A stretch of 64,000 nucleotides of DNA from an uncultured Opitutaceae bacterium (GTDB lineage Bacteria; Verrucomicrobiota; Verrucomicrobiia; Opitutales; Opitutaceae): positions 627,627-691,626 of the forward strand of contig OX638348.1 in the NCBI GenBank assembly GCA_951813085.1, given 5' to 3'. The position numbers and the translations under genes were made by a program. Numbering within the stretch: the first letter of the stretch is position 1; every line of letters starts with the position of its first letter. Positions 15,695 through 33,406 of this stretch are shown piece after piece. The notes beneath the pieces are model-generated. The model saw only the letters and a program-made list of their open reading frames with translations, had not been told where the DNA came from and made no database searches.

Positions 15695-15696
15695 TA

Positions 15697-16824
15697 CTAG
15701 CCTTCGCTGGGTCGCGACTGGTTGGACGTCTCCGCATTTCGAACCGATAGGCTATCGTCGACAATCTTTACCTTCGCGCCATCTTTCAGGGCATTGTGAC
15801 CGAGGATAATGATCGATTCGCCCTCATCCAGGCCATTGAGCGATTCGATGCGATCGCTATTCGCGTATCCAGGATGAAACTCTGTCTTTTCGGCGATGGC
15901 ATCTTTCACTTTGTAAATGTACATTTTCTCTCCTTCGTGAACGATTGCTGCCTTGGGTATGATCACTGCATCGGGTTTCGTATCCAACACGATCCTAACG
16001 GTCACGAACATCCCGGGATAAATAGGGGTCGCGCTGTTGTGGTCTACAGCGACCTTAACATTGAAGGTACCGCTGGCAGAGTCGATAGCTGGGCTGACAA
16101 GCTTCACTTCGGCATCATACGATACGCCCTCGATAATTTCAGAGACAATTTCCGATTTGAGACCTTTCTGGATGTGTAGCATATGCTGCCCAGGAATGTT
16201 CACCTGAGCGAAAAGCTCGTCCATATTTAGGAGCGAGAAAAGCGCATTGCTTCCTGAAACCCGTTCTCCTTCTTGAGTGAGTCGCTTTGAAATAACTCCG
16301 GAAACAGGAGCTCGGACTTTCGTGTCCTCTAAACGGATACGGGAGCGCTCGTAGTTGATCTCCGCCTGCTCTAGATCGAAAAGCTCGGTATCGTATTCTT
16401 GTTGATTGATCAGGCTTCGATCAAACAGGTCCTGAGTCCTCTGAAATTTAGATTGCAGATGCTGATAGCGCGAAAGGGACTCCTTGACGTTAACTTGCTC
16501 TTCTTCGTTTTCGAGTTGAGCGATTATTTGTCCAGCCTCGACCGCATCGCCAACCTCGGCGAGCACTTCAACGACGAGTCCAGTGGATTCTGGGAAAATC
16601 TCAACGGCGCTTTCGGTTTCAAGAATCGAGTCGAACTCAAGGAAAGAAGAAATTTCACCGCGTTCAGCGGTTGCAACCTTTACGGGAATTTCGGTGACGA
16701 CTTCCTTCTCTTCCGAATCGGCTTTCGCGTCCTTGCCGTTACCTGGCGAATCTCCTACTTTCCCGCAACTCACGAGGATGATGCAGGCCAAGGAGGCGAT
16801 AAAGATTCGATAGAGGGTTTTCAT
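15697..16824 (-). CDS. RND efflux periplasmic adaptor (membrane fusion protein, HlyD/MdtA-like), lipoprotein
   Basis: Lipoprotein signal (…LACIILVSCGK). Coiled-coil plus beta-barrel MFP layout. First gene of the MFP-RND-RND operon on the minus strand. Confidence 0.85.
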   Translation of the reverse strand: MKTLYRIFIASLACIILVSCGKVGDSPGNGKDAKADSEEKEVVTEIPVKVATAERGEISSFLEFDSILETESAVEIFPESTGLVVEVLAEVGDAVEAGQIIAQLENEEEQVNVKESLSRYQHLQSKFQRTQDLFDRSLINQQEYDTELFDLEQAEINYERSRIRLEDTKVRAPVSGVISKRLTQEGERVSGSNALFSLLNMDELFAQVNIPGQHMLHIQKGLKSEIVSEIIEGVSYDAEVKLVSPAIDSASGTFNVKVAVDHNSATPIYPGMFVTVRIVLDTKPDAVIIPKAAIVHEGEKMYIYKVKDAIAEKTEFHPGYANSDRIESLNGLDEGESIIILGHNALKDGAKVKIVDDSLSVRNAETSNQSRPSEG

Positions 16825-17010
16825 GGAAGGAAAGCTATCAATGGAGCGAGGAATAGGTTCGTTAGGTGGCGTTGCGCGAAATGAGGCGCGCCTCGGGTTG
16901 GAACGTTGATTCCTCGCTGAGCTCCCACACTTCTTCAGTCAATTGTCTTTTACACGTAAAACGCTATCAAAGTTGCGCTATTTGTAGGAAAAAGCGACAA
17001 CGTAAGTCGA

Positions 17011-17772
17011 TTATAGCGCTCCCTTGGGTTTGTCGATTAACCGCGCGTGAACCTGGGCTACCATTCCCATAGAGTTGTTCATCGAATATTCGGTGGCAGC
17101 GAGGCGAATATGCTCCGTCGCCTGCTTGGTTTGGCCATTGGCTTCGAAATATAGTCCGAGGTAGAGGTGAGCGTAGCAAAGACGCTGCCGATTGCGTTCA
17201 GGGTCGGAACCTGGAGGACTGGCCGCCTCGAGTACTTCTTTGGGTGAGCCGGAACCATGGAAAAGCGCCCAGATCTCTTTCATCGGGATTCTCGAATCGA
17301 ATTGAATCGGAATGAAGGACTGGCGAGCTGCCTCGAGGCCATCGATCCTGGCTTTGCAAATGAAGTGCCAAACTGCGTTTTCGACATCCTGGCCATTGAC
17401 GGTTTGGTGGAGCTCGAATTGGCGCGTCCCGTTTGCGTATTGGCCCGCATAGTAGTAGCAAATCCCTCTTTGCCAATGGTGGGCTTCTTGGCTCGGGGAG
17501 ATTGCGATAACCTGATCGAAATCGGCGATCGCCCGCTCCATGTCCCCCAATTCAAAATAGGCTACTCCTCGTGACTGATGGGCTCTGGCCGAGGATGGGT
17601 GTTCGCGGATGGATTGGTCGAGAAAGGCGATCGTTTCCTTTAATTCTGCGATCCTCTCTGGCGACTGAGCGGATAGCTTTGAGTCGGGGATGGCGCAAAT
17701 TAATGCGGCGGTAGCGATCGCCGGTTTCAAGCAAGAGTCCAAGTCCATTGGACTGGAAGCGTGGACCGGCAA
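17011..17772 (-). CDS. TPR-repeat protein
   Basis: Tetratricopeptide-like repeats (…AHQSRGVAYFELGDMERAIADFDQVIAISP…HHWQRGICYYYAGQY…). Confidence 0.6.
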   Translation of the reverse strand: MPVHASSPMDLDSCLKPAIATAALICAIPDSKLSAQSPERIAELKETIAFLDQSIREHPSSARAHQSRGVAYFELGDMERAIADFDQVIAISPSQEAHHWQRGICYYYAGQYANGTRQFELHQTVNGQDVENAVWHFICKARIDGLEAARQSFIPIQFDSRIPMKEIWALFHGSGSPKEVLEAASPPGSDPERNRQRLCYAHLYLGLYFEANGQTKQATEHIRLAATEYSMNNSMGMVAQVHARLIDKPKGAL

Positions 17773-17826
17773 TGCGAGTTGTTCAAGCGCTCGCTGCTTG
17801 TTTCAGGGGAAGGGGTGTCGAGAACG

Positions 17827-18207
17827 CTAGTTGCGCATGCCCGCGAGGGCCTTGTTCGCCTCAATGTAGCATTCGGGCCACTTCGGACCCTTCTTCTTGC
17901 TGAGGGCGCTATTGTAAAGCTCTTCCTGCTCCTTGATCGAGCGGTCAATCAGCTTCGCAAGCTCCGAAATCTCAGGCTGGAACTGGCGGGCGGCTTCATC
18001 GATTCGCTTTCTCAGCTTGTGCGGAGGGAGCTCTGCTTGACTTGAGCTGTAGAGATTGATCCCCGCATTTTCCCAATCTATCGTAAAACGCTTGATCGCT
18101 ACTTCATCGCCGTCTTTCTCGGCAAGCACTGCTTCAATCTTCGTTTGAAGCGCCAAGCGTTGCTTTTCCCATTTACGGAGCAAACGTCGCTTATCCTTTG
18201 GTTGCAT
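17827..18207 (-). CDS. Hypothetical protein (126 aa)
   Basis: ORF immediately upstream of and co-directional with the TPR gene. No recognisable family. Confidence 0.35.
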   Translation of the reverse strand: MQPKDKRRLLRKWEKQRLALQTKIEAVLAEKDGDEVAIKRFTIDWENAGINLYSSSQAELPPHKLRKRIDEAARQFQPEISELAKLIDRSIKEQEELYNSALSKKKGPKWPECYIEANKALAGMRN

Positions 18208-18296
18208 AGACTTAGAATCGGTCGGCCTGAGTAGTTTCTTTAGCGGTTCAAGCCGAATGTTTCGCGCGCTAGCTTAGCGAGTGAGGGTGAGCCCTT

Positions 18297-19313
18297 ATGG
18301 TAGCGGGCAGAAATGACCCATGCCCGTGGAGCGAAAGAACTGGATTGCGCTTGCCTTGGGCCTTTCTACGCGAGATTGGGTTGGGTATCGAAGAGATACC
18401 AGCAGCGCATTCGGATTTCGGGTATGGACGAGTGGGTTTCGTTTCCATTATTGGAAGACCAAACGTGGGCAAGTCCACCTTTCTCAACAAGACCCTGGGT
18501 TATCACCTAGCGGCTATCTCGAATCGACCGAATACAACTCGAAAACGATGGCTGGGCATTCTCAGCGACGCTGAGTCGCAAATTATATTCGCGGACACGC
18601 CAGGTGTCCATGCGTCTTCAAATAAGATGCAGGAGGCCATGGCAAAAACCGTGCGAGCGGAAATCGAGGGAAACGATACGATTGTCTGTCTTTGCGATGC
18701 GACACGCGCTTTTGGCGATGAAGATCGGCAGGTAGCGCCGCTCGCTCAGAATAGCTCCAAGCCAGTGACGCTCGTTGTCAACAAATTGGACATCGCGGAT
18801 GCCAGCCAGGCTGAGGAAATTCAAGATGCCTATTTGGCGCTGCTCGGAGACGTGAGTGTATTTCATGTGTCCGCTCTGACCGGATCTGGGCTTGATCCGC
18901 TTTTGGCTCATATTCGTTGCCTCTTGCCTGAGGGGCCTTTCCTCTTTCCAGAAGACCAGCTGACGGATGTAATTGAGCGGGAAATCGCGGAAGAGCTCAT
19001 AAGGGAAGCAGCTAACGAATGCCTTTGGGAAGAACTGCCGCAATCGATTATAGTGAAAATCGATACGTGGTCCGAGAATGCCAAAAAAGTAAAGATCGCG
19101 GCGACGTTGTTCGTGGAGCGCGAAAGCCAAAAATCGATCGTCATCGGAGAGAAGGGCGCCATGGCGAATCGGATCATCAAAGGAGCCCGCGAGAAGCTAA
19201 GAGAAAGCGTGGATAAGTTCGTGGATGTGAAGCTTTCCGTGAAAGTTGCGTTAGACTGGCAAAACAAGAAACGTTTCTTGGAAGACTACCGAATCGTAGA
19301 TTCGAAGCGGTAG
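18297..19313 (+). CDS. era: GTPase Era
   Basis: G1 motif GRPNVGKST, G3 DTPG, NKLD, and a C-terminal KH-domain region. The true start is probably downstream of 18297 (around 18375), because the Era core begins at …GFVSIIGRPNVGKST. Confidence 0.85.
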   Translation: MVAGRNDPCPWSERTGLRLPWAFLREIGLGIEEIPAAHSDFGYGRVGFVSIIGRPNVGKSTFLNKTLGYHLAAISNRPNTTRKRWLGILSDAESQIIFADTPGVHASSNKMQEAMAKTVRAEIEGNDTIVCLCDATRAFGDEDRQVAPLAQNSSKPVTLVVNKLDIADASQAEEIQDAYLALLGDVSVFHVSALTGSGLDPLLAHIRCLLPEGPFLFPEDQLTDVIEREIAEELIREAANECLWEELPQSIIVKIDTWSENAKKVKIAATLFVERESQKSIVIGEKGAMANRIIKGAREKLRESVDKFVDVKLSVKVALDWQNKKRFLEDYRIVDSKR

Positions 19314-19327
19314 CTGGATCGCAAACG

Positions 19328-20584
19328 TTATTTGGCTTTCAGCGCCAAGATTGAAGTATCGTCTTGGGGAAAGTTGCTTTTGCTATACGCTTCAAGGAAA
19401 TCGTGTATGTGTTCGATGATTTTGGATACATCTTTTGTCGCAACGGAGGCGAATGCCTGAATCAGGCCCTCCAGTCCAATTTCGGCGTCATCCGAAGAGC
19501 GGCATTCTATTACTCCATCGGTTACGAACAGAATGCAGTCACCTGCCTCCAAATCGAATGCTTTGCTTTGGACCTCGCCGCAAATTCCAAGTCCGATCAC
19601 GTTCTCTGAAGGAAGCGTCACGATCTCGACCTCTCCCGATTGGCTATGAAACCAAAGGGCCGATGGCTGTCCCGCATTCGCGATCGTGATTTGGCAGCCT
19701 CCAGTCTGCTTTGCCTCAAGCGTACCGACCAGAATCGCTACGAACCCCGAGGGTATGAGCCCTTTGAGATGCTCGTCTAGCGTGAGCAATGCCTCATCTA
19801 GCTTATTGAAGCTGCGAGGCATGTAGAAATCAGCCAAGTGCTTGATTAAAACGGTGAATAAACCTGCAGAAACGCCGTGACCGCTTACGTCTCCTAAAAG
19901 GAAGGACAGCTTGTCATTGGTCACGGTAGGAAATGTGATAAGGTCTCCGTTTACCTCGGTAAGGCTTATGCTCGAGGCAGCGATGTCGACGAACGGTAGA
20001 TTTGGGATCGGACCCGGAATTAACCGACGTTGAATACGTCGGGCATTGTCGAAATCCGTCTGCATGATATCGTTCTTGCGCTTCAGGAGCTCGCGGCTTT
20101 TTTCCAATTCGATCTGGGCGTTGATCTGCTCAGTGACGTCTCGGGTTATGCCCATCATTCCAACCACATTTCCGGACGCCAAATGCAATGGGATCTTCGT
20201 TGAGGTCGCCCACGTGATGCTACCATCGGGCCAGGTCTCTTTCTCAGTGATATTGACGAGCTTCTCGTCGCCCCGCATCAGCCTTTGCTCATCGTCGTAG
20301 GATTGTTGGGCATGTTCCCGAGTGAAGAAGTCAAAGTCGCTTTTTCCCTCTAGTTCTTCGGTTGAAGCCAATCCAAACTTCTTCGCAACCACATCGCTCG
20401 CCTTGACGAAGCGGCTTTTGCGATCCTTGAAATAGACCTGGTCCTGCGTTTGGCTCAACAGCGCATCGAAGAGCATCAGGTCAGATGCGTTCAGCAATTC
20501 AGAATGGTCTCCTTCGGGTGTTTGCATGGGGCCTAAGCCGGAGGGAGAATCAGTTTTCGAAGGGCTTGGGTCAATCCCAATCAC
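19328..20584 (-). CDS. PAS-domain PP2C/SpoIIE-type serine phosphatase (RsbU-like)
   Basis: N-terminal PAS-like region and C-terminal PPM phosphatase signature (…LLGDVSGHGVSAGLFTVLIKHL…FVTDGVIE…). Confidence 0.75.
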   Translation of the reverse strand: MIGIDPSPSKTDSPSGLGPMQTPEGDHSELLNASDLMLFDALLSQTQDQVYFKDRKSRFVKASDVVAKKFGLASTEELEGKSDFDFFTREHAQQSYDDEQRLMRGDEKLVNITEKETWPDGSITWATSTKIPLHLASGNVVGMMGITRDVTEQINAQIELEKSRELLKRKNDIMQTDFDNARRIQRRLIPGPIPNLPFVDIAASSISLTEVNGDLITFPTVTNDKLSFLLGDVSGHGVSAGLFTVLIKHLADFYMPRSFNKLDEALLTLDEHLKGLIPSGFVAILVGTLEAKQTGGCQITIANAGQPSALWFHSQSGEVEIVTLPSENVIGLGICGEVQSKAFDLEAGDCILFVTDGVIECRSSDDAEIGLEGLIQAFASVATKDVSKIIEHIHDFLEAYSKSNFPQDDTSILALKAK

Positions 20585-20611
20585 AATGGGAGATCGATAC
20601 GCGTTTTCCCG

Positions 20612-21913
20612 CTAATCAGTCGCTCGATAGTATCCACCCAATTCCGATGCCAGATAAGCGAATGTAACATAGGCAGCGGCGCTTTGATTGATCCGTTCAG
20701 GCTCGATTTTGTCTATCGTATCGTTGGCTGTGTGGTGGAGGTCGAAATAATCGTCCGTAAACATGTCGAGTCCAACAATGGGAACGCCAGCGTTGCTCAT
20801 GGGGACGATATCCGGTCCTCCTCGGGACTTTGCTCTTCCAGGCTGAACCCCCAGCTTGGATAGGGCTGATCGGATTGTGGACAAGGTAGGTTCGAGTGGA
20901 TTGCCCACGCCAATATCGATCGTATGAACTGGGCCTTGGCCGGCATCCGCTTCGACCGCGATGATGTGGCGAGCCAATTCGTTCCGGTTGTTTTCGACGT
21001 AGAAGTTCCCGCCATAGATTCCAATTTCCTCCGCTCCAAAAAGGACGACGCGAATTGTTCGCTTTGGACGTTCGGGCAAGTCGAGGATTAGCTTCGAGGC
21101 CGTCATAACAATGCCGACGCCCGCTCCATCATCGATCGCTCCAGTCCCCAGGTCCCAAGAGTCAATGTGGGCCCCCAGCAAGACGATTTCATCGGGGCGT
21201 TCACTGCCTGAGATTTCAGCGATAAGGTTTTGGCTAGTTACGGTTCCAAGCTGTTTTGGTGTCAGGACGATTCGAATACGTATTGAATCCGTTCGGGTAG
21301 CAAGACGATCAAGCTGTTGGGCATCCGGTACGGATAGGGCTGCGGCGGGTATGCGTGGAACGCCATCCTAGTATCGAGTTCCACCCGTGTGCGCCATTCG
21401 ATCGCCGTCAGTTCCAGCGGACCTCATCAGGAAAGCGATCACGCCACGCTTGGCGGCTTCCGATGGGCCATTTCCGCGTATCGGTCCTGAGATGCGTCCA
21501 TATTCGCCAATTCCCATTGCCTGCGCGACCACTGCGATTTTTCCGCTCAAGGATCCTTCTGGTTGATCGAGGAGCGCCTGTATTGTGGGGAATAGAGCGA
21601 TCTCCGCTTCAATTCCTTCTGGTGGAGTAGCGACGCTGCCGCCCAAGGCCGTTATGACGAGGCCTTGCGGGGAGGGTAGAGTAATCTCGGCGGTTTCCAG
21701 GCCGCGCTCCCAACCGCGGTCGACGGGGAAAGATTCGGTCCAGATTTTATCGAATCCGTATTCCTCGAATCGCTTAGCTGCCCATTCCACCGCCTGCTTC
21801 TCGCTTTCGGAACCGAAAAGGCGGGGTCCAATCTCGGTGGTGAGATCAGTTGCGATCTCCAGCGCGAGTCCCGTAGAAATGGCTTGCTCCGCGAGGCGCT
21901 CCGCGGTTTTCAA
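20612..21913 (-). pseudogene. M28-family Zn peptidase with PA domain, interrupted by an in-frame TAG
   Basis: ORFs 21368-21913 and 20612-21181 share one frame. The stop-free stretch between them encodes …DGVPRIPAAALSVP…LIAEISGSERPDEIVLLGAHIDSWDLGTGAIDDGAG…, a continuous M28 peptidase. A single TAG (plus-strand 'cta' at 21368-21370) is the only interruption. The reading frame upstream of 21913 also encodes a signal peptide (…SRLGSIAIALLSSTLSYS…) but has no canonical start codon. Confidence 0.7.
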
Positions 21914-22019
21914 TGCGGTCTCGTTGGAGTAGGAGAGAGTTGAGGAAAGCAGAGCGATTGCGATGCTTCCCAGTCGAGATTTGGAAGCATTGAACGGTAG
22001 TTGAAAGTTAGTGACGTCG

Positions 22020-22976
22020 TTACTCTTCCGAATCGGTTGCTGCGTCGCTGTCTTCTTCGACCCCCACGGTTTCGAGCGTGCCGATGTCCACGGATCCGGT
22101 TCCGAAGTGAGTATTGCTTTTTGCGTATTTCTCTAGGCTGGTTCCAAAGTAGGGCCGTGCGGCCCGGGCAAGGGCTGGATAGGCGTCCACGAAGTTCGTG
22201 CCGATCGCAGGTACGCTGAATCGCGTCGTCCAAAGGAGTTCAGTCTCCTTCGTCGCCTTTAGCTTTTGGAAATCGTATGCCATGAGAATGATAAAATAAC
22301 GCTCATCTTCGAGTTCGACTCGCAAATTGAATTCCTCATTCCGATTGATGTTCTTTCGGCTTAGGGCCCTTCCGATACCCAACTCCCTATTGTCCATTAT
22401 GGTCTTGTGCTTTGCGACATTGTTTCGGCTGACTCTTGCTAAATCCTGAAGGTCTTCAAACGATTCGCTGTAGTTTTCTGAAAACCCTGTATATTCGCTC
22501 TCCTCGGGATCCGAGTAGAGGCCATCCGCGGTATCTGCATACGGATCTGAAGAGTCGGTCGGAAAGAGGTCTTCCCAATCCTGCTCTACGCTCGTTGATC
22601 CATAGTGTACGACGATAAGCAGGTCGCCGTCGTCAGGAATCGCAGAAGGATAGTAATTTCGGTCCTTCATGTTTTCGGCGAGACTACCGATTATTTCTTC
22701 GAAACTGGGCGTCCTGAGACTTTTGTCCTTAAAGTCTCTTCCGTAAAAATTCCCCTTCATGAAGACGAAGGTTTCATACTTAGATCCTTCGTCGGTATTC
22801 TTAGACTCATCGTAGGACACGGATGCCTCTGAATCTACGAAAACGCGCGCTGTTTTTGCAGCGAATCCAGTCGCTACGAGTGAAGCTAGGGCGATCGCTA
22901 AGAGTCCGGAACGAATCCAGTGAATTCGTTCTTTAGCTAGGAGGGCAGTGCCTTCAGTTGGAGAGCATGGGTTCAT
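22020..22976 (-). CDS. Hypothetical secreted acidic protein
   Basis: 318 aa with an N-terminal signal/anchor (…GLLAIALASLVATGFAAK…) and many D/E/S/Y-rich stretches. No recognisable family. Confidence 0.5.
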   Translation of the reverse strand: MNPCSPTEGTALLAKERIHWIRSGLLAIALASLVATGFAAKTARVFVDSEASVSYDESKNTDEGSKYETFVFMKGNFYGRDFKDKSLRTPSFEEIIGSLAENMKDRNYYPSAIPDDGDLLIVVHYGSTSVEQDWEDLFPTDSSDPYADTADGLYSDPEESEYTGFSENYSESFEDLQDLARVSRNNVAKHKTIMDNRELGIGRALSRKNINRNEEFNLRVELEDERYFIILMAYDFQKLKATKETELLWTTRFSVPAIGTNFVDAYPALARAARPYFGTSLEKYAKSNTHFGTGSVDIGTLETVGVEEDSDAATDSEE

Positions 22977-23099
22977 TTCAGTGTAGATTCCGGCTATTTG
23001 CTATCAGTTGGACAGTGCTGGCTTGGTCAAAATTGATTACTCTAGATAACGGAAAGAAATCGCATCACTAAATAAGTACAACGTCAATCGGGACTAGTT

Positions 23100-23119
23100 G
23101 GTAGTGTCCTAATTTGAAT
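23100..23119 (+). repeat. Terminal inverted repeat, left copy (overlaps the transposase stop codon)
   Basis: 20/20 match to the reverse complement of 25571-25590. Confidence 0.7.
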
Positions 23120-23777
23120 CGGTCCTTTCGACAAGCTCCGCGACCGACATTTGAGAATCCATCACACCGGCCTCCATTGCAGGAGCGCAACGAATCGTTT
23201 GGTGACGTTCGCAGAGGTTGCAGTATGCGTAGTGCAATGAGATTGCCGCTTCGAAATTGCGGCGCTTCTTACTGAATGCGTTGGTCAAGCGGCTTAGACG
23301 GCGGCAATGCATGCGGGCTGTGTGATTCTGCTTCTCGATATATGAGGTCGAAACCTTCTTCATGTCTGGGTTTCCCGCTTCGACCCTTCTTTCGATATGC
23401 ATGCATTCGGGCGGCGAATAACGGCGGCTTTCCGCAAGATCGTCCATGAGTCGCATTGCGCGAGGCAAGTCGCGATCTCCCACAACGACAGAAGGCGCAA
23501 GCTTAGTGTCGGCATCGATCGCAGACCAAACCCAAACGTCACCAAATCCTGGATCAAGCTTGTTCTTGGCTACCGTCTTCTTCTTGGCGCCGATGAATCC
23601 CCGCATTTCGTCAGCTTGGATGCTGCTACATGCGAGACCACGCATCGACTCATCGAGAAGCTTGCGGCATCCCTCTCCGACCCTGACACCAAGACGCATG
23701 ATCGCGTCACGGTGAATTGAGGTCATGCGTTCAATGGAGCGGACACGATTGCCTTCGCAGAGCATTGATACCGCCAT
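23109..23777 (-). CDS. IS1-family transposase (InsAB-like; lacks N-terminal zinc finger, possibly degenerate)
   Basis: Recalled similarity to IS1 InsB: …ADEMRGFIGAKKK… matches AEMDEQWGYVGAKSR; …VVVGDRDLPRAMRLMDDL… matches HVFGERTMATLGRLMSLL; …YIEKQNHTARMHCRRLSRLTNAFSKK… matches [27 protein letters not shown]. An HTH-like InsA-type segment precedes it. The segment corresponding to the IS1 'TDGW' catalytic region is not evident. Confidence 0.7.
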   Translation of the reverse strand: MAVSMLCEGNRVRSIERMTSIHRDAIMRLGVRVGEGCRKLLDESMRGLACSSIQADEMRGFIGAKKKTVAKNKLDPGFGDVWVWSAIDADTKLAPSVVVGDRDLPRAMRLMDDLAESRRYSPPECMHIERRVEAGNPDMKKVSTSYIEKQNHTARMHCRRLSRLTNAFSKKRRNFEAAISLHYAYCNLCERHQTIRCAPAMEAGVMDSQMSVAELVERTDSN

Positions 23778-23939
23778 TGTTTTGCTTTCGATTGTTTGCC
23801 ATGTCGTTTTCTCAACTTGATTGATATTCTGCTTTAATCAGTATGCTAGCCAATTAAAAAAGTAGGAAAGGAGTCGAATCTTGGCTGCGCTAGGGAAGGG
23901 GCTGGAGGACCAAAGGGCCAGACGAAGAAAAAGGTCTCC

Positions 23940-24371
23940 GTGTCGCTGGACAAGGAGACCCTAGGGAAAGCTTTAAGGAAATGGGGCGGGGATAAGACCT
24001 CTCAGCTACTGGGCGCCCTTCTTAAGGAGCATGTAAAGAAGCAGCGCTTTATTCAATTCAAGCTTGCAGCCTGCGGGGCTCGAACCCATGCCTCCGAGCT
24101 GGGAAGAGGCGCGGTTCGCCGATTGGCCCAAGGCTGCGAATTGGTCGAGCCCTCGCGCCTCACGGGAGAATCCGCCAAGGTTCACACTCCTGCGGGGCGC
24201 CGTCGTTTTGTTCGCGCGGGTGCGGGCGGCTCGTTGTCCATCGCGGGGCCGAAGCCCTGCCTATCCTGCTATTTCACTACCACGCGCCCTGAAGCTTGCT
24301 GCAGCGCTTTGGCGAGCTGGGAAGAGGCAGCTAGCGTTGGTTACGCGCGCTGCCGGACATTTGGGGTTTAG
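23940..24371 (+). CDS. Small ribbon-helix-helix/VapB-like antitoxin-type N-terminus (first 45 aa or so); the rest of the ORF is probably non-coding GC-rich read-through
   Basis: N-terminus (V)SLDKETLGKALRKWGGDKTSQLLGALLKEHVKK has the pattern of small RHH/VapB-type antitoxins. Beyond about 24075 the ORF overlaps a tRNA-like remnant and reads like translated GC-rich non-coding DNA. Confidence 0.25.
   Translation: MSLDKETLGKALRKWGGDKTSQLLGALLKEHVKKQRFIQFKLAACGARTHASELGRGAVRRLAQGCELVEPSRLTGESAKVHTPAGRRRFVRAGAGGSLSIAGPKPCLSCYFTTTRPEACCSALASWEEAASVGYARCRTFGV
24065..24137 (-). tRNA. Degenerate tRNA-like remnant (73 nt; intact acceptor stem and T-arm, broken anticodon arm)
   Basis: On the minus strand there is a perfect 7-bp acceptor stem (GCAGCCT/AGGCTGC), discriminator A, and T-arm ATGGG-TTCGAGC-CCCGC. 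Total length is exactly 73 nt. The anticodon arm cannot form a canonical 5-bp stem with a 7-nt loop. Confidence 0.35.
24095..24110 (+). repeat. Direct repeat copy 1 (cgagctgggaagaggc) inside the tRNA-like remnant
   Basis: Identical 16-mer recurs at 24313-24328. Both copies are preceded by aagcttgc (24060-24067 and 24292-24299). The second copy looks like the first with the T-arm segment deleted. Confidence 0.5.
24313..24328 (+). repeat. Direct repeat copy 2 (partial duplicate of the tRNA-like remnant)
   Basis: See copy 1. Confidence 0.5.
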
Positions 24372-24602
24372 CGTAAATAGCGGATCCGCAAAGGTTTCAG
24401 TCTCAGCGATGAAGAAATATGGCCTTATAGAGGATGAGGGCAGCCGCGCCTCTCGCAAGATGCGGATATCTGAGCAGGGCATCGCATTATTGAAGCCATC
24501 AAATCCAGGAAGGCCCCGGCTTTTGGGGGAAGCGGCTTTGAAACCCGCAACCCATACCGAGCTATGGGAGCGGTTCGGCGGCGGGGGATCCGATGGCTAA
24601 GA

Positions 24603-25173
24603 CTACCTAGTTTTCGAACGGCGATTTACTGAAGCTGCCGCAAAGGCCCTAATCTCGCAATCTCGAGATACGATTTCATTTGCAAAGATAGGTGAAGGCG
24701 ATAGGGCCGAGGCGAATTCAGATGAAGAGAAAGAGCCGCCGCCCGTAGGTTCGCTTGCTCAATGGGCTTCTGGCGGCGTTGATCGGTTTGCAGAGCCTAA
24801 GAAAATTAAAGGCATGTCTGACGATGGCGAATGGGCCTTCGTTGATGGTAGCCCAACTGGGCTGCGTATGGCAGAAGCATCACTGGCGGAACCACCCCTT
24901 GCCAAAGGGGAGCAATCAAAGGCTCGAAGCCCGCCGCCCAATCCGTCTGCTCTCAAAAAAGAGCAAGCAAGCGGCGCGCAAGAAGCCCCTCCGGCAGAAG
25001 GCTACGCCAAGGAACGATTCACGACTGAGGAGGGTCCAGCGCTTTTGCGATGGCCCATGGAGCTTTCCGAAGATAGCGTGGAGGATATTGAATACTGGAT
25101 CGAGGGAGCGATGCGACGGGCGCGCCGAAAAGCAGGTTCGCCACCTGCAGGATCAGAATGGGCGAATGCTTAG
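24603..25173 (+). CDS. Hypothetical acidic, low-complexity protein (frame open upstream of the ORF-track M at 24814)
   Basis: Stop-free frame from about 24603 (…FERRFTEAAAKALISQSRDTISFAKIGEGDRAEANSDEEKEPPP…MELSEDSVEDIEYWIEGAMRRARRKAG…). No canonical start upstream of 24814. May be a frameshifted continuation of ORF 24064-24600. Confidence 0.3.
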
Positions 25174-25445
25174 CCAACCTCCCTGACGCCGCGACAGCAA
25201 TGCACGGCGTTCCCTGTTCGCATGTGGAGGCCGCTCGCGTCATTGAGGCGATGGACGGTAAGGAGGCTTGGAACGGCGAGGCTGGGGTGTTCGCGCTCTC
25301 AGGACACCCCCAGCCACAAATGCCTATGCGTGGGGCTACAAGGACGAGATTCAGTACATGGCTGCGCTAAATGTGCCGCCGATCCATTCAGCCCGTGAAG
25401 CCGTACAAGCAGCTATTGCCAGCGGAAATTTCTCGTGATCGACAT

Positions 25446-25529
25446 CGGGAGGGGGATTCGAACCCCCGGACGTATGGTACGTACGCCCGATTATCAATCG
25501 GATGCCTTAAGCCACTCAGCCATCCCTCC
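25446..25529 (-). tRNA. Type-II (Ser-like) tRNA pseudogene/remnant: anticodon loop reads GAU, acceptor stem 3' strand mismatched
   Basis: Minus strand reads GGAGGGA-TG-GCT-GAGTGGCTTAA-GGC-A-TCCGA-TTGATAA-TCGGG-[long variable arm CGT ACGTA CCA TACGT CC]-GGGGG-TTCGAAT-CCCCC-TCCCGAT. The D-arm and variable-arm layout matches tRNA-Ser. The anticodon is GAU rather than GCU/NGA. The last three acceptor pairs fail (3' strand …CCCGAT instead of …CCCTCC). It lies just inside the right IR. Confidence 0.45.
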
Positions 25530-25570
25530 ATAAGTTCTATCTTAGGAGAATCCGGCGTTTGGTCAATCAA

Positions 25571-25590
25571 ATTCAAATTAGGACACTACC
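25571..25590 (-). repeat. Terminal inverted repeat, right copy
   Basis: 20/20 match to the reverse complement of 23100-23119. Confidence 0.7.
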
Positions 25591-25665
25591 GAGGAAAGTC
25601 GTTGGTGTTCCTAAGAAGGACCAGAATTCGGTTTGGGACCCGATGACGGAGTTCCTAGGATTGGT

Positions 25666-27400: not shown

Positions 27401-27596
27401 GGTGTGGTCGCTCGGAGATCGACCGCTACCAGGTATCAGCGAACAACGACAGCCGCACGGTCGTCCTGAAGGACGGTACAGGCAACTTGAGCTTGAATGG
27501 GGATTTTTCCTTGGCGAGCGTGAACGACAGGATCGTCTTGTCCTATTATGAACATAGCTCCACTTGGGTGGAGATCTCCAGAAGCTCCAACGCGTC

Positions 27597-28022
27597 TTAG
27601 CTGCCCTTCATGATTTCCTGCTCATGCCGCGTCGCGCGAGCGTGCTCTTGGACCTTCCGCAGCGCTTCGGCCTTCTCCTCGACGAACACGCGAGGCATCA
27701 AGCGCTGAATGTGCGTTTTGCGCGGGCCTTTCTCTCGCGCTGCTTCAATGGAGAGCAGCGCGCGGGCGTCGTCCTGCGAAATCGCCCTCTCCTTCAGCTT
27801 GTTGGAGAGCTGGACGTACCCGACCACGTCGCCGCTCGTCGGATTGGAGACGAGCGCCACCCGGCGCTCGGAATCGTGCAAGGACACCGGAGCCGTGAGA
27901 AGCCCCCTCCTTTGCAGGTTGGCAATGACCTTCCGCGTGATGGCGGGCTGCTCTGCGAATAGCTTCGGATATTCCTTCATTTCCTGTTGAATGGTTTTTT
28001 TCATCTTATCGTCATTTGCCAT
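27597..28022 (-). CDS. Hypothetical protein (141 aa)
   Basis: ORF with reasonable composition. No recognisable family. Confidence 0.4.
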   Translation of the reverse strand: MANDDKMKKTIQQEMKEYPKLFAEQPAITRKVIANLQRRGLLTAPVSLHDSERRVALVSNPTSGDVVGYVQLSNKLKERAISQDDARALLSIEAAREKGPRKTHIQRLMPRVFVEEKAEALRKVQEHARATRHEQEIMKGS

Positions 28023-28052
28023 AGGTTGCCGTTGAAATTCGTCGGTATGGGT

Positions 28053-30977: not shown

Positions 30978-31268
30978 GGGTGTCGTAGGTGGTCCCTATG
31001 TTATCGACGAGAACGAGAACAAATTTACCTGGCCGACCGCTGATTTTTCGACCGAAATTTTATTAACAGGATACGGCCCGCTCAACGGGACTACATGATG
31101 GCTTCGCCAACATGATGAGTGTTCAAGGGGCTCTAACATGCAGGCCTTGCCGTCATGCAAGCGATTCCGCGAATCGTTAGAGCGCCGCAGCCTGCTATAC
31201 AATTTCTTGCTTCTACCAGGGCGCCTTGTCGATGCCGAGGAACTTCATGTCAGAAGGCGCTCGGATTT

Positions 31269-32732
31269 CTATGACGTTTTTTCCTCGGCGGGTTCCGATG
31301 GCGTATCGGAAGGTGGCTCGGGTTCGGGCTGGGCTTCTTCTACTTTTTTCTCCGCGATTTCGCCCAGATACTTCGGCAGTTCGATCCCCGCCATTCCGGC
31401 GACTTCGTGCAACGGTGGAAGGCTCTTGATCAAGCCGGAGAGAAAGTCCGCTGTATTTGTTTTTCCATTAGAGCCTTCCGCTCCGGAATCCCAGACGGTA
31501 ACCTTATCAATCTTAATATTGCGGATGGCTTCTACTTGGACGTCGACGATCTGTTCGATTTTCTCGGTCATCAGGAGGGTCGCGGCGGACTTCGCGTCGC
31601 CATTGCATCCTTCTACGAGCGCGAGGTAGCCCGCGGCCTTGCTTTGCAGGACTTGTCGAACCCCTTCCGCTTCCGCTTGATACTTTAGCAAGATAGCATC
31701 TGCCTCGCCCTTGGCCTCTCTGCGCAGTTTTTCCGCTTCGGCTTCCGCCGCAATTTCGACCTTTCGTTTGTCGACTTCCTGACGGGCGATCTCTTCTGCG
31801 TTGAGGCGTTCCGACTCGGCTTTGTATTGAGCTTTCTGGATCTCGACTTCGGCCTCTCGTTTCGCAACTTCGCCACGTTGCAGGGCGGCGGCTTCTTTTA
31901 CCGCGAGCGTTGCGTTCGCATCGGCGATGTCCGCGTCCGCGGTATTTTCCCCTTCAACCGCTTTCGCTTCTTGCCCTTGCACGTAGATACGCTGATCCGC
32001 TTCCGCTTGTTTCTTCCCTTTTTCCGCTTCCGCCACGTTTTGGGCGACCTTGATTTCCTGCTCTCGCGTTGCGTGAGATTCTCCGATCGACCCTAGCTTT
32101 TCCTGCTCAGCGACATCGATCTTCGCTTGGTTGATCGCTTCTGCCGCCGCCTTCTTCCCAATCGAATCGATATACCCCGATTCATCGGTAATGTCGGTGA
32201 TGTTTACATTGATTAAATAGAGACCGATTTTGTTTAATTCTATGGATACATTCGTCCTTATGGATTCGAGAAAGCTCTCTCGGTCCTGGTTGATTTGCTC
32301 AATCGTAAGAGACGCCACTGTGAGACGGAGTTGACCGAATAGGATCTCTTTCGCCATTTCCTCGATTTCACTTTGATTGAGGTGCAAGAGGCGTTCCGCG
32401 GCCGCGGTCATGGTGTCCGGAATGGTACTGATTCCGATTGTAAAGGTACAGGGTACATTGATACGGATGTTCTGCATCGAGAGGGCTCCTTGCAGAGGAA
32501 TACCTATCGTCATAGGAGTCAGGCTCACGTAAGCGTAGTCCTGAATCAGAGGCCAAATGACGCTGCCGCCTCCATGGATACAGCGAGCAGATTGTCCACT
32601 TCCTACTTTCCCGTAAACGACTAGTATTTTGTCCGAGGGGCACCGCTTGTAGCGTGACGCGAGGAATATGATGGTAACCACCACCAGCAAGAGGAGGGCG
32701 GCGATTGGAACGATCCAGAAATTAAATGGCAT
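31269..32732 (-). CDS. Flotillin / SPFH (band-7) family protein
   Basis: N-terminal TM helix, SPFH domain, then a long A/E/K-rich coiled-coil (…AEADQRIYVQGQEAKAVEGE…EIAAEAEAEKLRREAKGEADAILLKYQAEAEG…). Confidence 0.8.
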   Translation of the reverse strand: MPFNFWIVPIAALLLLVVVTIIFLASRYKRCPSDKILVVYGKVGSGQSARCIHGGGSVIWPLIQDYAYVSLTPMTIGIPLQGALSMQNIRINVPCTFTIGISTIPDTMTAAAERLLHLNQSEIEEMAKEILFGQLRLTVASLTIEQINQDRESFLESIRTNVSIELNKIGLYLINVNITDITDESGYIDSIGKKAAAEAINQAKIDVAEQEKLGSIGESHATREQEIKVAQNVAEAEKGKKQAEADQRIYVQGQEAKAVEGENTADADIADANATLAVKEAAALQRGEVAKREAEVEIQKAQYKAESERLNAEEIARQEVDKRKVEIAAEAEAEKLRREAKGEADAILLKYQAEAEGVRQVLQSKAAGYLALVEGCNGDAKSAATLLMTEKIEQIVDVQVEAIRNIKIDKVTVWDSGAEGSNGKTNTADFLSGLIKSLPPLHEVAGMAGIELPKYLGEIAEKKVEEAQPEPEPPSDTPSEPAEEKTS

Positions 32733-32755
32733 AGTGGAGTTGGGTTGATTGGGGG

Positions 32756-33328
32756 TTATAGGAGTTTTTCGACGATCAGCACATTTGCGTGCACCTCTAA
32801 TATCTTTACGGGAGTACCGCTTTCAAGCTCCTCGCCGTCATTGGTTCGCGCATCGCATTCCCGTGACATACTGGGTACGGAAACTCGACCTGATCCCCCT
32901 TTAGGGATCCGTTGATAGACGGTTCCGGCGCGACCGACGGCGGCGGACGTATCTTTGGTTCCGCTCGATTCCAGACCACTGGCGAGCTTGAACAGTTTTC
33001 CAATGATCCATACGGAAATCGCACCTGCCACGAGACCTCCCAATATGGAAGGAGTGAACCCCGACGCGCTTTGTCGGTAGAGAGCGAGCCCGACCAGGCC
33101 GAACATCATGAAAAAGGCACTGAGTGCATGGAGAGACAGTACTTTAAACCCGACATCGGTGTTTGTGTGGGTTGCGTCGACATCGATGTCGACATCTCCG
33201 TCAAAGGCGTCTGCTTCCCCTCCAAAAAACTGAAGTATCATTCTGAGTAGAACAAAAAAGCCTCCGACACTTGCGCAGATTGCATAGAATATTTCGACTC
33301 CGTTGAAATCGGAGAAGGCTTCGGTCAT
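32756..33328 (-). CDS. NfeD-like membrane protein (flotillin partner)
   Basis: Hydrophobic N-terminal half plus a C-terminal OB-like soluble part. Located immediately upstream of the flotillin gene, the classic yqiJ-yqiK-type pairing. Confidence 0.65.
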   Translation of the reverse strand: MTEAFSDFNGVEIFYAICASVGGFFVLLRMILQFFGGEADAFDGDVDIDVDATHTNTDVGFKVLSLHALSAFFMMFGLVGLALYRQSASGFTPSILGGLVAGAISVWIIGKLFKLASGLESSGTKDTSAAVGRAGTVYQRIPKGGSGRVSVPSMSRECDARTNDGEELESGTPVKILEVHANVLIVEKLL

Positions 33329-33406
33329 GGAAAACTATGGGTTGGAGATTAAGAGTGGGAGGTCCATTTGGGGATGCCCTTAGTTGAATTATTCAGGATC
33401 GTGAAG

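What the first reader, a model, noticed from the sequence alone, without database searches (positions are those of the whole stretch)
23100..25590. 2.5-kb segment bounded by perfect 20-bp IS1-like inverted repeats, containing a degenerate IS1-family transposase and tRNA debris
ggtagtgtcctaatttgaat at 23100-23119 and its exact reverse complement at 25571-25590 cannot be chance at this length. The IR tip resembles the IS1 family terminus. The transposase ORF (23109-23777) ends inside the left IR, as insB does in IS1. However, 2.5 kb is about three times the size of IS1, and the interior carries a VapB-like RHH ORF, two degenerate tRNA-like sequences and acidic low-complexity ORFs. Either this is an unusual cargo-carrying IS1-family element, or two IS ends have captured the scar of an integrative element at a tRNA locus.
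Basis: partly seen in the sequence, partly recalled or inferred. Interest (0 to 1): 0.6.

Follow-up and report, generated by a model that had tools for sequence, protein, structure and literature searches.

The report
Decayed IS1-family transposon at a rearrangement junction
The 2.5-kb segment is one dead copy of a widespread, so far undescribed group of large IS1-type jumping genes that carry extra genes and a structured RNA with a tRNA-like end; this copy is ordinary debris, but the family it reveals is worth a closer look.

Summary
The perfect 20-bp inverted repeats sit at 23100-23119 and 25571-25590, and they enclose a truncated IS1-family transposase gene and two tRNA-like sequences.

The segment is a single element, not two IS ends around a tRNA-locus scar. 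It is collinear with intact 3.1-3.2-kb relatives that have the same IRs and perfect 8-bp target duplications. The shared order is IR, variable slot, 82-96-aa gene, winged-helix gene, about 200-nt structured RNA ending in a tRNA-like domain, small RHH gene, transposase, IR.

All four protein genes in the window copy are broken. The transposase has lost 44 residues, including an invariant Asp.

The copy has no target duplication. Sister strains (96-97% identical) match the window exactly up to each IR and then continue into different, non-adjacent loci. A second copy with the same deletion exists in the same genome. The element therefore marks an IS-associated rearrangement, or possibly a mis-join in the assembly.

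The same 20-mer ends elements of 32 bp to 5.3 kb in more than 120 genomes from many phyla. About half of the closer relatives carry a tRNA-like module upstream of the transposase, often with a tRNA-Ala-type acceptor stem. I found no prior description of this.

The parts
23100..23119 (+). Terminal inverted repeat at the transposase-proximal end (GGTAGTGTCCTAATTTGAAT). It also encodes the last residues (DSN) and the stop codon of the transposase.
   Evidence: The same 20-mer ends elements in more than 120 genomes. Sister-strain synteny stops at 23102/23099.
23109..23777 (-). Transposase pseudogene (222-aa ORF). Relatives are 275-277 aa. A 132-nt in-frame deletion at about 23433 removes residues 127-170 (P0004 numbering), including invariant Q134, D138, Y143, D156 and K162.
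   Evidence: A1; A4; window 23432/23434 corresponds to L121 6511/6377.
23778..23852 (.). Divergent control region between the transposase and RHH genes. The ancestral transposase start (ATG at 23802-23800 on the - strand) is put out of frame by an 8-nt deletion after ATGGCAAA. The region holds a conserved palindrome (TTGATTAA..TTAATCAA in relatives) that is the likely RHH operator.
   Evidence: A11. The operator role is inferred.
23853..24041 (+). Remnant of the conserved 61-63-aa RHH-like gene. It is 81% identical to the L121 protein, but the start codon is ATT instead of ATG and the stop codon is lost, so translation would read on to 24371.
   Evidence: Relatives give weak BrnA- and NikA-like hits.
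24064..24137 (-). Decayed tRNA-like 3' domain of the element's non-coding RNA. The acceptor stem GCAGCCU/AGGCUGC is intact.
   Evidence: Rfam tRNA gives 20.9 bits here, against 42-46 bits in L121-L123 at the same position.
24152..24255 (-). 5' domain of the same RNA: helix P1 plus a long hairpin P2.
   Evidence: Covariance model R1 scores 81.7 bits here. In the 13-bp main helix of P2, 9 pairs show compensatory changes, and no shuffled or slid control reached the observed values.
24244..25173 (+). Remnant of the conserved 249-337-aa accessory gene, which has an N-terminal winged-helix domain. The start and about 16 N-terminal codons are missing, there is an in-frame TAA at 24598-24600, and the conserved C-terminal motif is degraded.
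25158..25438 (+). Remnant of the conserved 82-96-aa gene (p96), split by a frameshift near 25308-25312.
   Evidence: This gene is the transposase's commonest companion across the family.
25441..25530 (-). Class-II (long variable arm) tRNA-like fragment in the element's variable slot. The body is Ser-type, the anticodon loop is UUGAUAA (GAU), and the 3' acceptor strand is broken after UCCC with no CCA.
   Evidence: It is absent from the sister-strain empty site.
25571..25590 (-). Terminal inverted repeat at the distal end, an exact reverse complement of 23100-23119.
   Evidence: Sister-strain synteny starts exactly at 25591.
23092..23099 (.). Left flank (GACTAGTT). It does not match the right flank. 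In sister strains this side continues into a TonB_C gene.
25591..25598 (.). Right flank (GAGGAAAG). In sister strains this octamer lies between the ribosome-binding site and the ATG of an AP_endonuc_2 gene that is absent from the window.

Best explanation
Window 23100-25590 is one non-autonomous, decayed copy of a large IS1-family transposon, of the 'tIS' kind that carries passenger genes.

Shown: the family is defined by the 20-bp IR GGTAGTGTCCTAATTTGAAT, an 8-bp target duplication and a 275-277-aa single-ORF DDE transposase. In this subclade the order is IR, variable slot, p96 gene, winged-helix gene, structured RNA (P1, P2, tRNA-like domain), RHH gene, transposase, IR.

Shown: all four protein genes in the window copy are inactivated, while both IRs remain perfect.

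Shown: the two flanks come from loci that are not adjacent in sister strains, and a second copy with the same transposase deletion exists in the same genome.

Inferred: the defective element was mobilised in trans to at least two sites. Homologous recombination between the two copies, or an intramolecular transposition event, then joined one flank of each site. That left this copy without a target duplication.

Inferred for intact relatives: the RHH protein represses the divergent promoters through the palindromic operator. The RNA is a separate transcript whose tRNA-like end serves as a processing signal or tRNA mimic linked to transposase expression.
For: 1. IR and ORF coordinates are confirmed.
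2. The ORF shows IS1-family similarity.
3. The element is collinear with intact relatives at 73-82% nucleotide identity: L121 (3,082 bp, TSD CAACACAC) and L123 (3,222 bp, TSD CAGCATCC). L124, L218 and L222 are further complete relatives with perfect TSDs.
4. Of 58 IR-bounded units surveyed, 43 have a perfect 8-bp TSD and 4 more match at 7 of 8.
5. The gene lesions are documented.
6. Sister-strain contigs align to the window up to 25591 and 23102 and then diverge into AP_endonuc_2/Nramp genes and a TonB_C gene respectively.
7. Nramp and GFO orthologs lie on the same 4,852,771-bp contig as the window, so those neighbours were not deleted.
8. P0121 is a second 222-aa copy, 98% identical, on the same contig.
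9. RNA structure is supported.
Against: The source genome outside the window could not be read. The reciprocal junction, the location of the second copy and the presence of any intact helper transposase are therefore untested. None of the 120 best transposase homologs other than P0001 is on the 4.85-Mb contig, so no close helper is visible. The non-adjacent flanks could also come from an assembly mis-join across the two-copy repeat. The roles proposed for the RHH protein and the RNA are inferences with no expression data behind them. The origin of the class-II tRNA-like fragment is unresolved.
Confidence: 0.85

Rival explanations
1. Two independent IS ends, or two solo IRs, happen to flank chromosomal DNA that is the scar of an integrative element at a tRNA locus.
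For: There is no target duplication. A tRNA-like fragment with a broken 3' acceptor end lies 40 bp inside one IR.
Against: The interior is collinear, gene by gene, with single intact elements bounded by the same IRs and by perfect TSDs. No integrase was found. Sister-strain sequence stops exactly at the outer edge of each IR, and no tRNA is present at either empty site.
Confidence: 0.03
2. The element is real, but the join of the two unrelated flanks is an assembly artefact. On this reading the genome has two complete copies, each with its own TSD, and the assembler crossed over inside the 2.5-kb repeat.
For: Two copies about 98% identical exist on one contig. Both flanks end exactly at IR edges, which is what a repeat-mediated mis-join would also produce.
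Against: The record is a single 4.85-Mb contig. Assemblies of that contiguity usually come from long reads that span 2.5-kb repeats, but this rests on general knowledge and was not checked here.
Confidence: 0.12
3. A single copy lost its TSD through IS1-type intramolecular transposition, either an adjacent deletion or an inversion started from one end, rather than through homologous recombination between two pre-existing copies.
For: By established knowledge, IS1 and related elements cause adjacent deletions and inversions; PMC7986276 notes alternative transposition pathways for IS1. Replicative inversion would also create a second, inverted copy, which fits P0121.
Against: Simple deletion is excluded because the Nramp and GFO neighbours persist in the genome. 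Both copies share the 44-aa deletion, so the event would have needed a transposase supplied in trans, or the deletion spread afterwards by gene conversion.
Confidence: 0.2
4. The 222-aa ORF is still an active transposase and the element is autonomous.
For: The ORF is open, the IRs are perfect, and there are two copies.
Against: The deletion removes 14 positions that are invariant in 17 homologs, including D138, which is the expected second catalytic Asp by position. The ancestral N-terminus is frameshifted. The three other conserved genes are also broken.
Confidence: 0.02

Closest known systems
IS1 (E. coli) and the IS1 family as defined by ISfinder
   Same: The DDE transposase is detectably related to InsB (PF03400, NF033558). 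The IR tip GGTAGTG fits the family's GGnnnTG ends (consensus recalled from ISfinder). The 8-bp target duplication is within IS1's 8-9 bp. The transposase gene ends inside the IR.
   Different: The transposase is a single 277-aa ORF with no InsA/InsB frameshift arrangement. Elements are 2.3-5.3 kb rather than about 0.77 kb. They carry conserved accessory genes and, in many members, an RNA gene. Scores fall below the curated family cut-offs: 70.6 bits against a cut-off of 100, with a secondary IS6 hit.
tIS (IS carrying passenger genes), including long IS1-family members of the ISMhu11 type and IS1595-family tIS
   Same: An IS-type transposase and IRs enclose extra genes. The concept is stated in PMC7986276. 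Cargo in relatives includes PIN, Abi_alpha (PADLOC PDC-S47) and Xre-type genes.
   Different: Part of the 'cargo' here is conserved with the transposase across the clade: p96, the RHH gene and the tRNA-like RNA. That suggests accessory functions rather than passengers. I could not compare against ISfinder entries, and my knowledge of ISMhu11 is from memory only.
MITEs and other non-autonomous IS derivatives
   Same: The IRs are perfect while the transposase is dead. The same defective copy is present twice. Many short derivatives of 32-930 bp with the same IRs and TSDs occur in other genomes.
   Different: This copy is 2.5 kb and keeps recognisable remnants of every gene. It also lacks a TSD.
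tmRNA tRNA-like domain and MALAT1-mascRNA-type tRNA-like processing modules
   Same: The element RNAs have an acceptor stem plus T arm with a weak or absent anticodon arm. They give sub-threshold Rfam hits to tmRNA and mascRNA. Nine of 13 have G3:U70 and A73. In the window's subclade the tRNA-like unit sits at the 3' end of a larger structured RNA.
   Different: There is no mRNA-like tag region. No processing or aminoacylation has been shown. The location is inside a DDE transposon.
IS families that encode functional RNAs (IS110 bridge/seek RNA, IS200/IS605 omega RNA)
   Same: A structured non-coding RNA is encoded inside the element next to the recombinase gene.
   Different: The enzyme class differs (an IS1-type DDE). 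I saw no complementarity between the RNA loops and the IRs by eye, and the RNA is absent from many members that have the same IR. A guide role is therefore unlikely.

Membership tests
IS1 family | DDE transposase homologous to IS1 InsB (Pfam PF03400 / NCBIfam NF033558) | tested here: inconclusive
   Window ORF: PF03400 23.3 bits against a gathering score of 24.1, and NF033558 49.9 bits (E 3.5e-13) against a cut-off of 100. Intact relative P0004: NF033558 70.6 bits (E 1.6e-19) against 100, plus an IS6 hit of 39.9 bits. Sources name relatives 'IS1 family transposase'. The similarity is significant but below the curated thresholds, so this is a distant subgroup.
IS1 family | Terminal inverted repeats of about 20-25 bp with GGnnnTG tips | tested here: met
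   The IR is a perfect 20 bp beginning GGTAGTG. The consensus is recalled from ISfinder and was not checked against it.
IS1 family | Target-site duplication of 8-9 bp (family level) | tested here: met
   Of 58 IR-bounded units, 43 have a perfect 8-bp TSD and 4 more match at 7 of 8.
IS1 family | Target-site duplication flanking this particular copy | tested here: not met
   The flanks are GACTAGTT and GAGGAAAG, a 3 of 8 match. This is explained by the flanks coming from two different loci.
IS1 family (classical) | Size of about 0.7-1.2 kb with only InsA/InsB reading frames joined by a -1 frameshift | tested here: not met
   The transposase is a single 275-277-aa ORF. Complete elements are 2.3-5.3 kb with extra genes.
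tIS (IS with passenger genes) | Genes unrelated to transposition lie inside the IRs of an IS-type element | tested here: met
   Relatives carry PIN, Abi_alpha (PDC-S47, E 3.8e-52), DUF2283 and Xre-HTH genes inside the IRs. The concept is from PMC7986276.
Non-autonomous (trans-mobilised) derivative | Intact ends, an inactive transposase, and more than one copy sharing the same lesion | tested here: met
   The IRs are perfect. The 44-aa deletion includes invariant D138. P0121 shares the deletion. A helper transposase in the genome was not testable.
Composite transposon | Two complete IS copies flanking unrelated DNA | tested here: not met
   Only one transposase remnant and two bare 20-bp IRs are present. 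The interior is collinear with single elements.
tRNA-targeting integrative element (scar) | A tyrosine or serine integrase, and direct repeats that duplicate a tRNA 3' end at a chromosomal tRNA gene | tested here: not met
   No integrase domain was found. No such direct repeats were found. The sister-strain empty sites hold no tRNA.
Genuine tRNA gene (24064-24137) | Rfam RF00005 at or above the gathering score, with all four arms | tested here: not met
   The window copy scores 20.9 bits against a threshold of 29. Orthologs score 42-46 bits, but the anticodon arm is only 36% paired across 10 elements and the 'anticodons' are inconsistent.
Genuine tRNA gene (25441-25530) | An intact acceptor stem with a discriminator base and a plausible identity | tested here: not met
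   Rfam gives 38.8 bits, but two acceptor pairs are mismatched because the 3' strand diverges after UCCC. The body is class II Ser-type with a GAU anticodon.

The most novel reading that the evidence does not exclude
This IS1-family clade encodes a dedicated structured RNA. Most members have a tRNA-like unit just upstream of the transposase, often with the tRNA-Ala/tmRNA identity set G3:U70 plus A73. The window's subclade has a roughly 200-nt RNA made of P1, P2 and a tRNA-like domain. The novel reading is that this RNA is processed by tRNA enzymes and takes part in controlling transposase expression or transposition. That would be a new class of RNA partner for a DDE transposon.
Probability: 0.3. 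Interest if true: 0.75.

Novelty: new variant of a known kind. Interest (0 to 1): 0.5.

Why it matters
The window copy itself is a dead transposon, and it matters only as a marker of a strain-specific genome rearrangement. The family it belongs to matters more, for four reasons.

First, one exact 20-bp end sequence is shared across at least ten phyla, which points to very wide horizontal spread or strong constraint on the transposase-end interaction.

Second, the elements carry varied toxin-like or defence-like cargo together with conserved proteins of unknown function: p96, which has a confident fold with no informative structural neighbour, and a winged-helix protein.

Third, many members place a tRNA-like RNA, often with alanine identity elements, immediately upstream of the transposase. 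If that RNA is functional, it adds a new case to the short list of transposons that rely on their own structured RNAs.

Fourth, the proposal is testable, because intact copies exist in cultured bacteria.

Tried and rejected
- The first nhmmer run returned nothing because of a format error. It was repeated correctly, where sequence-level searches found the RNA only in close relatives.
- Look-ups of P0001 and P0130 in the contig index failed because the source genome is not indexed. The reciprocal junction and the second copy's context therefore could not be read.
- The organism name could not be retrieved.
- Covariance model R1 (P1+P2) hits only the window and L121-L124, so the 5' RNA domain is specific to the subclade.
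- Model R2 has only the T-arm pairs, because MAFFT misaligned the 5' acceptor strands. I used it only as a detector.
- ARAGORN misses most of the element tRNA-likes.
- A guide-RNA role was considered and set aside. I saw no complementarity to the IR by eye, and the RNA is absent from many members that have the same IR.
- The large protein gave only a winged-helix inference.
- Literature searches found no description of an IS1-type element with a tRNA-like RNA.
- The origin of the class-II tRNA-like fragment was not resolved. It is 74% similar to a genuine tRNA-Ser(GCU) and 71% similar to an element-borne class-II unit.
Full report
**1. Observation.**

The sequence GGTAGTGTCCTAATTTGAAT occupies 23100-23119, and its exact reverse complement occupies 25571-25590. 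Allowing 3 mismatches, these are the only two matches in the window, and none occurred in 100 shuffles. The repeat is exactly 20 bp, because the inner neighbouring bases differ.

The ORF 23109-23777 (- strand, 222 aa) ends with a TAG at IR positions 10-12. ARAGORN and Rfam find a 90-nt class-II tRNA-like sequence at 25441-25530(-) scoring 38.8 bits. Rfam also finds a weak tRNA-like match at 24065-24137(-) scoring 20.9 bits, below the gathering score of 29.

**2. The transposase.**

The ORF matches the IS1 models. NCBIfam NF033558 gives E 3.5e-13 and 49.9 bits against a cut-off of 100. Pfam PF03400 gives 23.3 bits against a gathering score of 24.1. It has more than 5,000 homologs, and those listed are nearly all 275-277 aa. 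Where a source names them, the name is mostly 'IS1 family transposase'. An intact relative, P0004, scores 70.6 bits on the IS1 model and 39.9 bits on IS6. This is a distant single-ORF branch of IS1.

Alignment shows two lesions in the window copy.
- **N-terminal frameshift.** An 8-nt deletion just after the ancestral ATGGCAAA start puts the first 11 codons out of frame.
- **Internal deletion.** A 132-nt in-frame deletion at about 23433 removes residues 127-170 of the P0004 numbering. That block holds 14 positions that are invariant in 17 homologs, including D138 in the 'Q-I-S-x-D-A-L' motif. By position D138 is the expected second catalytic Asp; this assignment is an inference.

The protein is almost certainly inactive.

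**3. One element, not two ends.**

The closest intact transposases were traced to their contigs. L121 carries a 3,082-bp element with the same IRs (one mismatch each) and the 8-bp duplication CAACACAC. L123 carries a 3,222-bp element with the duplication CAGCATCC.

The window segment is collinear with these elements at 73-82% nucleotide identity over the transposase, the small divergent gene, a non-coding stretch and a 96-aa gene. It is collinear at the protein level over a 249-337-aa gene.

With the transposase strand taken as +, the shared order is:
1. IR
2. Variable slot
3. p96 gene (82-96 aa, - strand)
4. Large gene (- strand)
5. RNA (+ strand)
6. 61-63-aa RHH-like gene (- strand)
7. Transposase (+ strand), ending in the other IR

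The window orthologs of the three accessory genes are all damaged.
- **RHH gene (23853-24041).** The start codon is ATT and the stop is lost.
- **Large gene (24244-25173).** The start and about 16 N-terminal codons are missing, and there is an in-frame TAA at 24598-24600.
- **p96 gene (25158-25438).** It is frameshifted near 25308-25312.

**4. The family.**

By record title these include Verrucomicrobiota, Acidobacteriota, Planctomycetota, Bacteroidota, Alpha-, Gamma- and Deltaproteobacteria, Chloroflexota, Gemmatimonadota, Zixibacteria and Ignavibacteriota-type genomes. The sequence on both sides of the 20-mer is unrelated between genomes.

Partner IRs lie 32 bp to 5,350 bp away. Units that hold the transposase are 2.0-5.3 kb, and shorter units are MITE-like. 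Of 58 IR-bounded units, 43 have a perfect 8-bp target duplication and 4 more match at 7 of 8. Further complete relatives confirm this: L124 (GGATATTC), L218 (CCTCTTTC), L219 (GTCGAGTT, with a nested IS) and L222 (CGATATTG).

At 2,491 bp the window element is therefore normal for its clade. Its missing duplication is a real exception.

Cargo differs between members. It includes PIN-domain genes, an Abi_alpha gene that matches the candidate defence family PDC-S47 at E 3.8e-52, DUF2283 and Xre-type HTH genes. Carrying passenger genes fits the established 'tIS' concept (PMC7986276).

The 82-96-aa protein p96 is the most regular companion of the transposase. In many members its gene overlaps the transposase stop codon.

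**5. Why there is no target duplication.**

Metagenome contigs from strains 96-97% identical to the window carry both flanking genes. Contigs L206-L211 align to window 27412-25591 and stop at the first base outside the right IR. They then continue into AP_endonuc_2, Nramp and GFO/IDH genes that are not in the window. Contigs L212-L217 align to window 14026-23102 and stop at the left IR. They then continue into a TonB_C gene.

Both IRs are therefore genuine insertion junctions, but at two different loci that lie on separate contigs of at least 50 kb in the same sample. Site A lies between the ribosome-binding site and the ATG of the AP_endonuc_2 gene, with target GAGGAAAG.

Orthologs of the Nramp and GFO genes are present elsewhere on the same 4,852,771-bp contig as the window, so the neighbours were moved rather than deleted. 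A second 222-aa transposase ORF, P0121, lies on that same contig. It is 98% identical and has the same deletion.

The simplest reading has three steps. The already-defective element was inserted at both sites, which requires a transposase supplied in trans. The two copies then recombined, or an intramolecular transposition event occurred. The result was a hybrid copy with one flank from each site.

I could not read the rest of the genome. The reciprocal junction is therefore a prediction, and an assembly mis-join across the repeat remains possible.

No tRNA gene lies at either empty site. The 25441-25530 fragment therefore belongs to the element, in its variable slot. In L121 that slot holds a DUF2283 gene, and in L123 it holds an unrelated 145-aa gene.

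**6. The 'tRNA debris' at 24065-24137 is a conserved RNA domain.**

At the same position in L121, L122 and L123, Rfam's tRNA model scores 45.5, 43.7 and 42.4 bits, on the transposase strand. The surrounding 200 nt of non-coding DNA is conserved. It folds into helix P1, a long hairpin P2 and the tRNA-like domain. In the relatives this is followed by an A/U hairpin that overlaps the end of the convergent RHH gene.

The structural evidence for the 5' domain is strong.
- Across five sequences, 90.7% of cells are paired.
- Of 30 pairs, 13 show changes on both sides.
- In the 13-bp main helix of P2, 9 pairs show compensatory changes.
- No shuffle out of 500 reached the observed values for four of the five measures (5 of 500 did for the fifth), and no slid register came close.
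- G-U pairs favour the transposase strand.

A covariance model of P1+P2 finds the window copy at 81.7 bits (24152-24255, - strand), but otherwise only L121-L124. The 5' domain is therefore specific to this subclade.

**7. tRNA-like units across the clade.**

A T-arm motif lies on the transposase strand within 600 nt upstream of the gene in 12 of 70 loci, at fixed distances of about -55 to -78 nt or about -285 nt. Elsewhere there are only 21 hits in 772 kb.

Rfam at gathering score finds upstream tRNA-like genes in L167, L195, L174, L134 and L137. Sub-threshold matches to the tmRNA tRNA-like domain or to mascRNA occur in L124, L139, L145, L146, L152, L154 and L218. A dedicated model adds L126, L131, L136 and a second tandem unit in L141.

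Among loci whose transposase is at least 50% identical to P0004 and that have enough upstream sequence, 12 have such a unit and 10 do not.

On a 10-sequence alignment the arms behave as follows.

| Arm | Cells paired | Pairs with compensatory changes |
|---|---|---|
| Acceptor stem | 94% | 5 of 7 |
| T arm | 92% | 3 of 5 |
| D arm | 77% | 3 of 4 |
| Anticodon arm | 36% | 3 of 5 |

Predicted 'anticodons' are inconsistent between elements: UCC, UUC, UUA, CAG, UAG and UGC. These are tRNA-like RNAs, not decoders.

Reading the alignments, 9 of 13 units have G3:U70 and A73. That is the alanine identity set shared by tRNA-Ala and tmRNA, by established knowledge. L124 and L218 carry the canonical GGGGCUA/UAGCUCC stem. 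The window's subclade has A3-U70 or G3-C70 instead.

In L145 the unit sits directly between a terminator-like hairpin and the transposase ribosome-binding site.

I found no paper describing such RNAs in IS1-type elements. Their function is unknown. The most economical hypothesis is that they serve as a tRNA-enzyme processing signal or tRNA mimic tied to transposase expression. In the window's subclade, such processing would release the P1-P2 RNA in the way MALAT1 and mascRNA are separated. This is inference only.

**8. Accessory proteins.**

- **RHH gene and operator.** A conserved palindrome lies between the RHH and transposase genes. This fits an RHH repressor controlling the divergent promoters; again this is an inference.

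**9. The class-II fragment at 25441-25530.**

Its D, anticodon, variable and T stems are intact. The 3' acceptor strand departs after UCCC, which leaves two mismatched pairs and no CCA. It resembles a genuine tRNA-Ser(GCU) at 74% over 85 nt, and the element-borne class-II unit of L195 at 71%.

Its broken 3' end abuts the stop codon of the p96 remnant. That is the same boundary at which the variable slot begins in L121. Two origins remain open: a captured host tRNA piece, or a remnant of another family member's tRNA-like module.

**10. Verdict.**

The finding is real. The segment is best described as a dead, trans-dependent copy of a large IS1-family tIS that marks a strain-specific rearrangement. 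The copy itself is ordinary. The family-level features are new as far as I could determine, and they are the part worth following up:
- an IR conserved across many phyla
- TSD-flanked units as short as 32 bp
- conserved proteins of unknown function
- a covarying RNA with a tRNA-like domain, often of the alanine type

Noticed in passing
L018 464-495, L100 5578-5609, L015 3115-3150, L056 1409-1447: These units are only 32-39 bp long, essentially two overlapping IRs with no interior. They are flanked by perfect or 7-of-8 8-bp target duplications. If they moved as such, they would be among the smallest transposable units known. Alternatively they are internal-deletion remnants.
   Followed up: partly
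L001-L120: The exact 20-mer GGTAGTGTCCTAATTTGAAT is present in more than 120 species-representative genomes from about ten phyla, although the associated transposases are only 35-50% identical to the window's. This is unusually strict conservation for an IS end.
   Followed up: partly
L124 4663-4733, L218 4673-4741, L145 4890-4962, L152 4757-4827, L146 1402-1474, L139 3397-3467, L134 1085-1159, L137 154-227, L141 3860-3933: The element-borne tRNA-like units carry G3:U70 plus A73, the alanine identity set of tRNA-Ala and tmRNA. Two of them have the canonical tRNA-Ala acceptor stem. The loop consensus CUUUACA resembles the tRNA-Ala loop UUUGCAC with one change.
   Followed up: partly
L141 3860-3932 and 3955-4022: Two tandem tRNA-like units lie upstream of one transposase gene.
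   Followed up: no
L167 143-227, L137 154-226, L195 4847-4942: ARAGORN calls two of the element tRNA-likes 'tRNA-Stop' (anticodon UUA). L195 is a class-II Ser-type body with a UGC anticodon and an encoded CCA. If expressed and charged, these could mis-decode, but the variety of anticodons argues against a decoding role.
   Followed up: no
L121 4402-4692, L124 5831-6118 (p96); window 25158-25438: The 82-96-aa protein that accompanies the transposase has a confident predicted fold (pLDDT 92.8) with no informative structural neighbour. It has a conserved H-x-C-x-C-x-H...H pattern that could bind a metal.
   Followed up: partly
window 25591-25598; L206 8845-8860: Insertion site A lies exactly between the ribosome-binding site (CTTTCCTC on the gene strand) and the ATG of an AP_endonuc_2 gene. 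The insertion, or the later rearrangement, separated that gene from its upstream region.
   Followed up: no
window 31250-33407: A 2.16-kb stretch absent from the sister strain holds a flotillin-like gene (487 aa) and an NfeD-like gene (190 aa). No terminal repeats were found, so this is a strain-specific gene-pair indel rather than an IS.
   Followed up: partly
window 27413-28031: A 619-bp stretch replaces 8 bp in the sister strain. It holds one 141-aa ORF (27597-28022, - strand) of unknown function and no inverted repeats.
   Followed up: partly
L219 3360-8102: This family member is 4,743 bp long with an intact TSD. The extra length is due to other transposase genes (DDE_Tnp_1 and possibly DDE_3) nested inside it.
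   Followed up: no
L221 1065-1868: A cargo gene of a close relative matches the candidate anti-phage family PDC-S47 (Abi_alpha) at E 3.8e-52. Other relatives carry PIN-domain genes next to a small RHH gene. The clade appears to move toxin-like or defence-like modules.
   Followed up: partly
L125 244-623 and IR at 682: One complete element sits 58 bp from a cluster of three genuine tRNA genes (Val, Pro, Ser-GCU). I did not test whether the family prefers tRNA-proximal targets.
   Followed up: no
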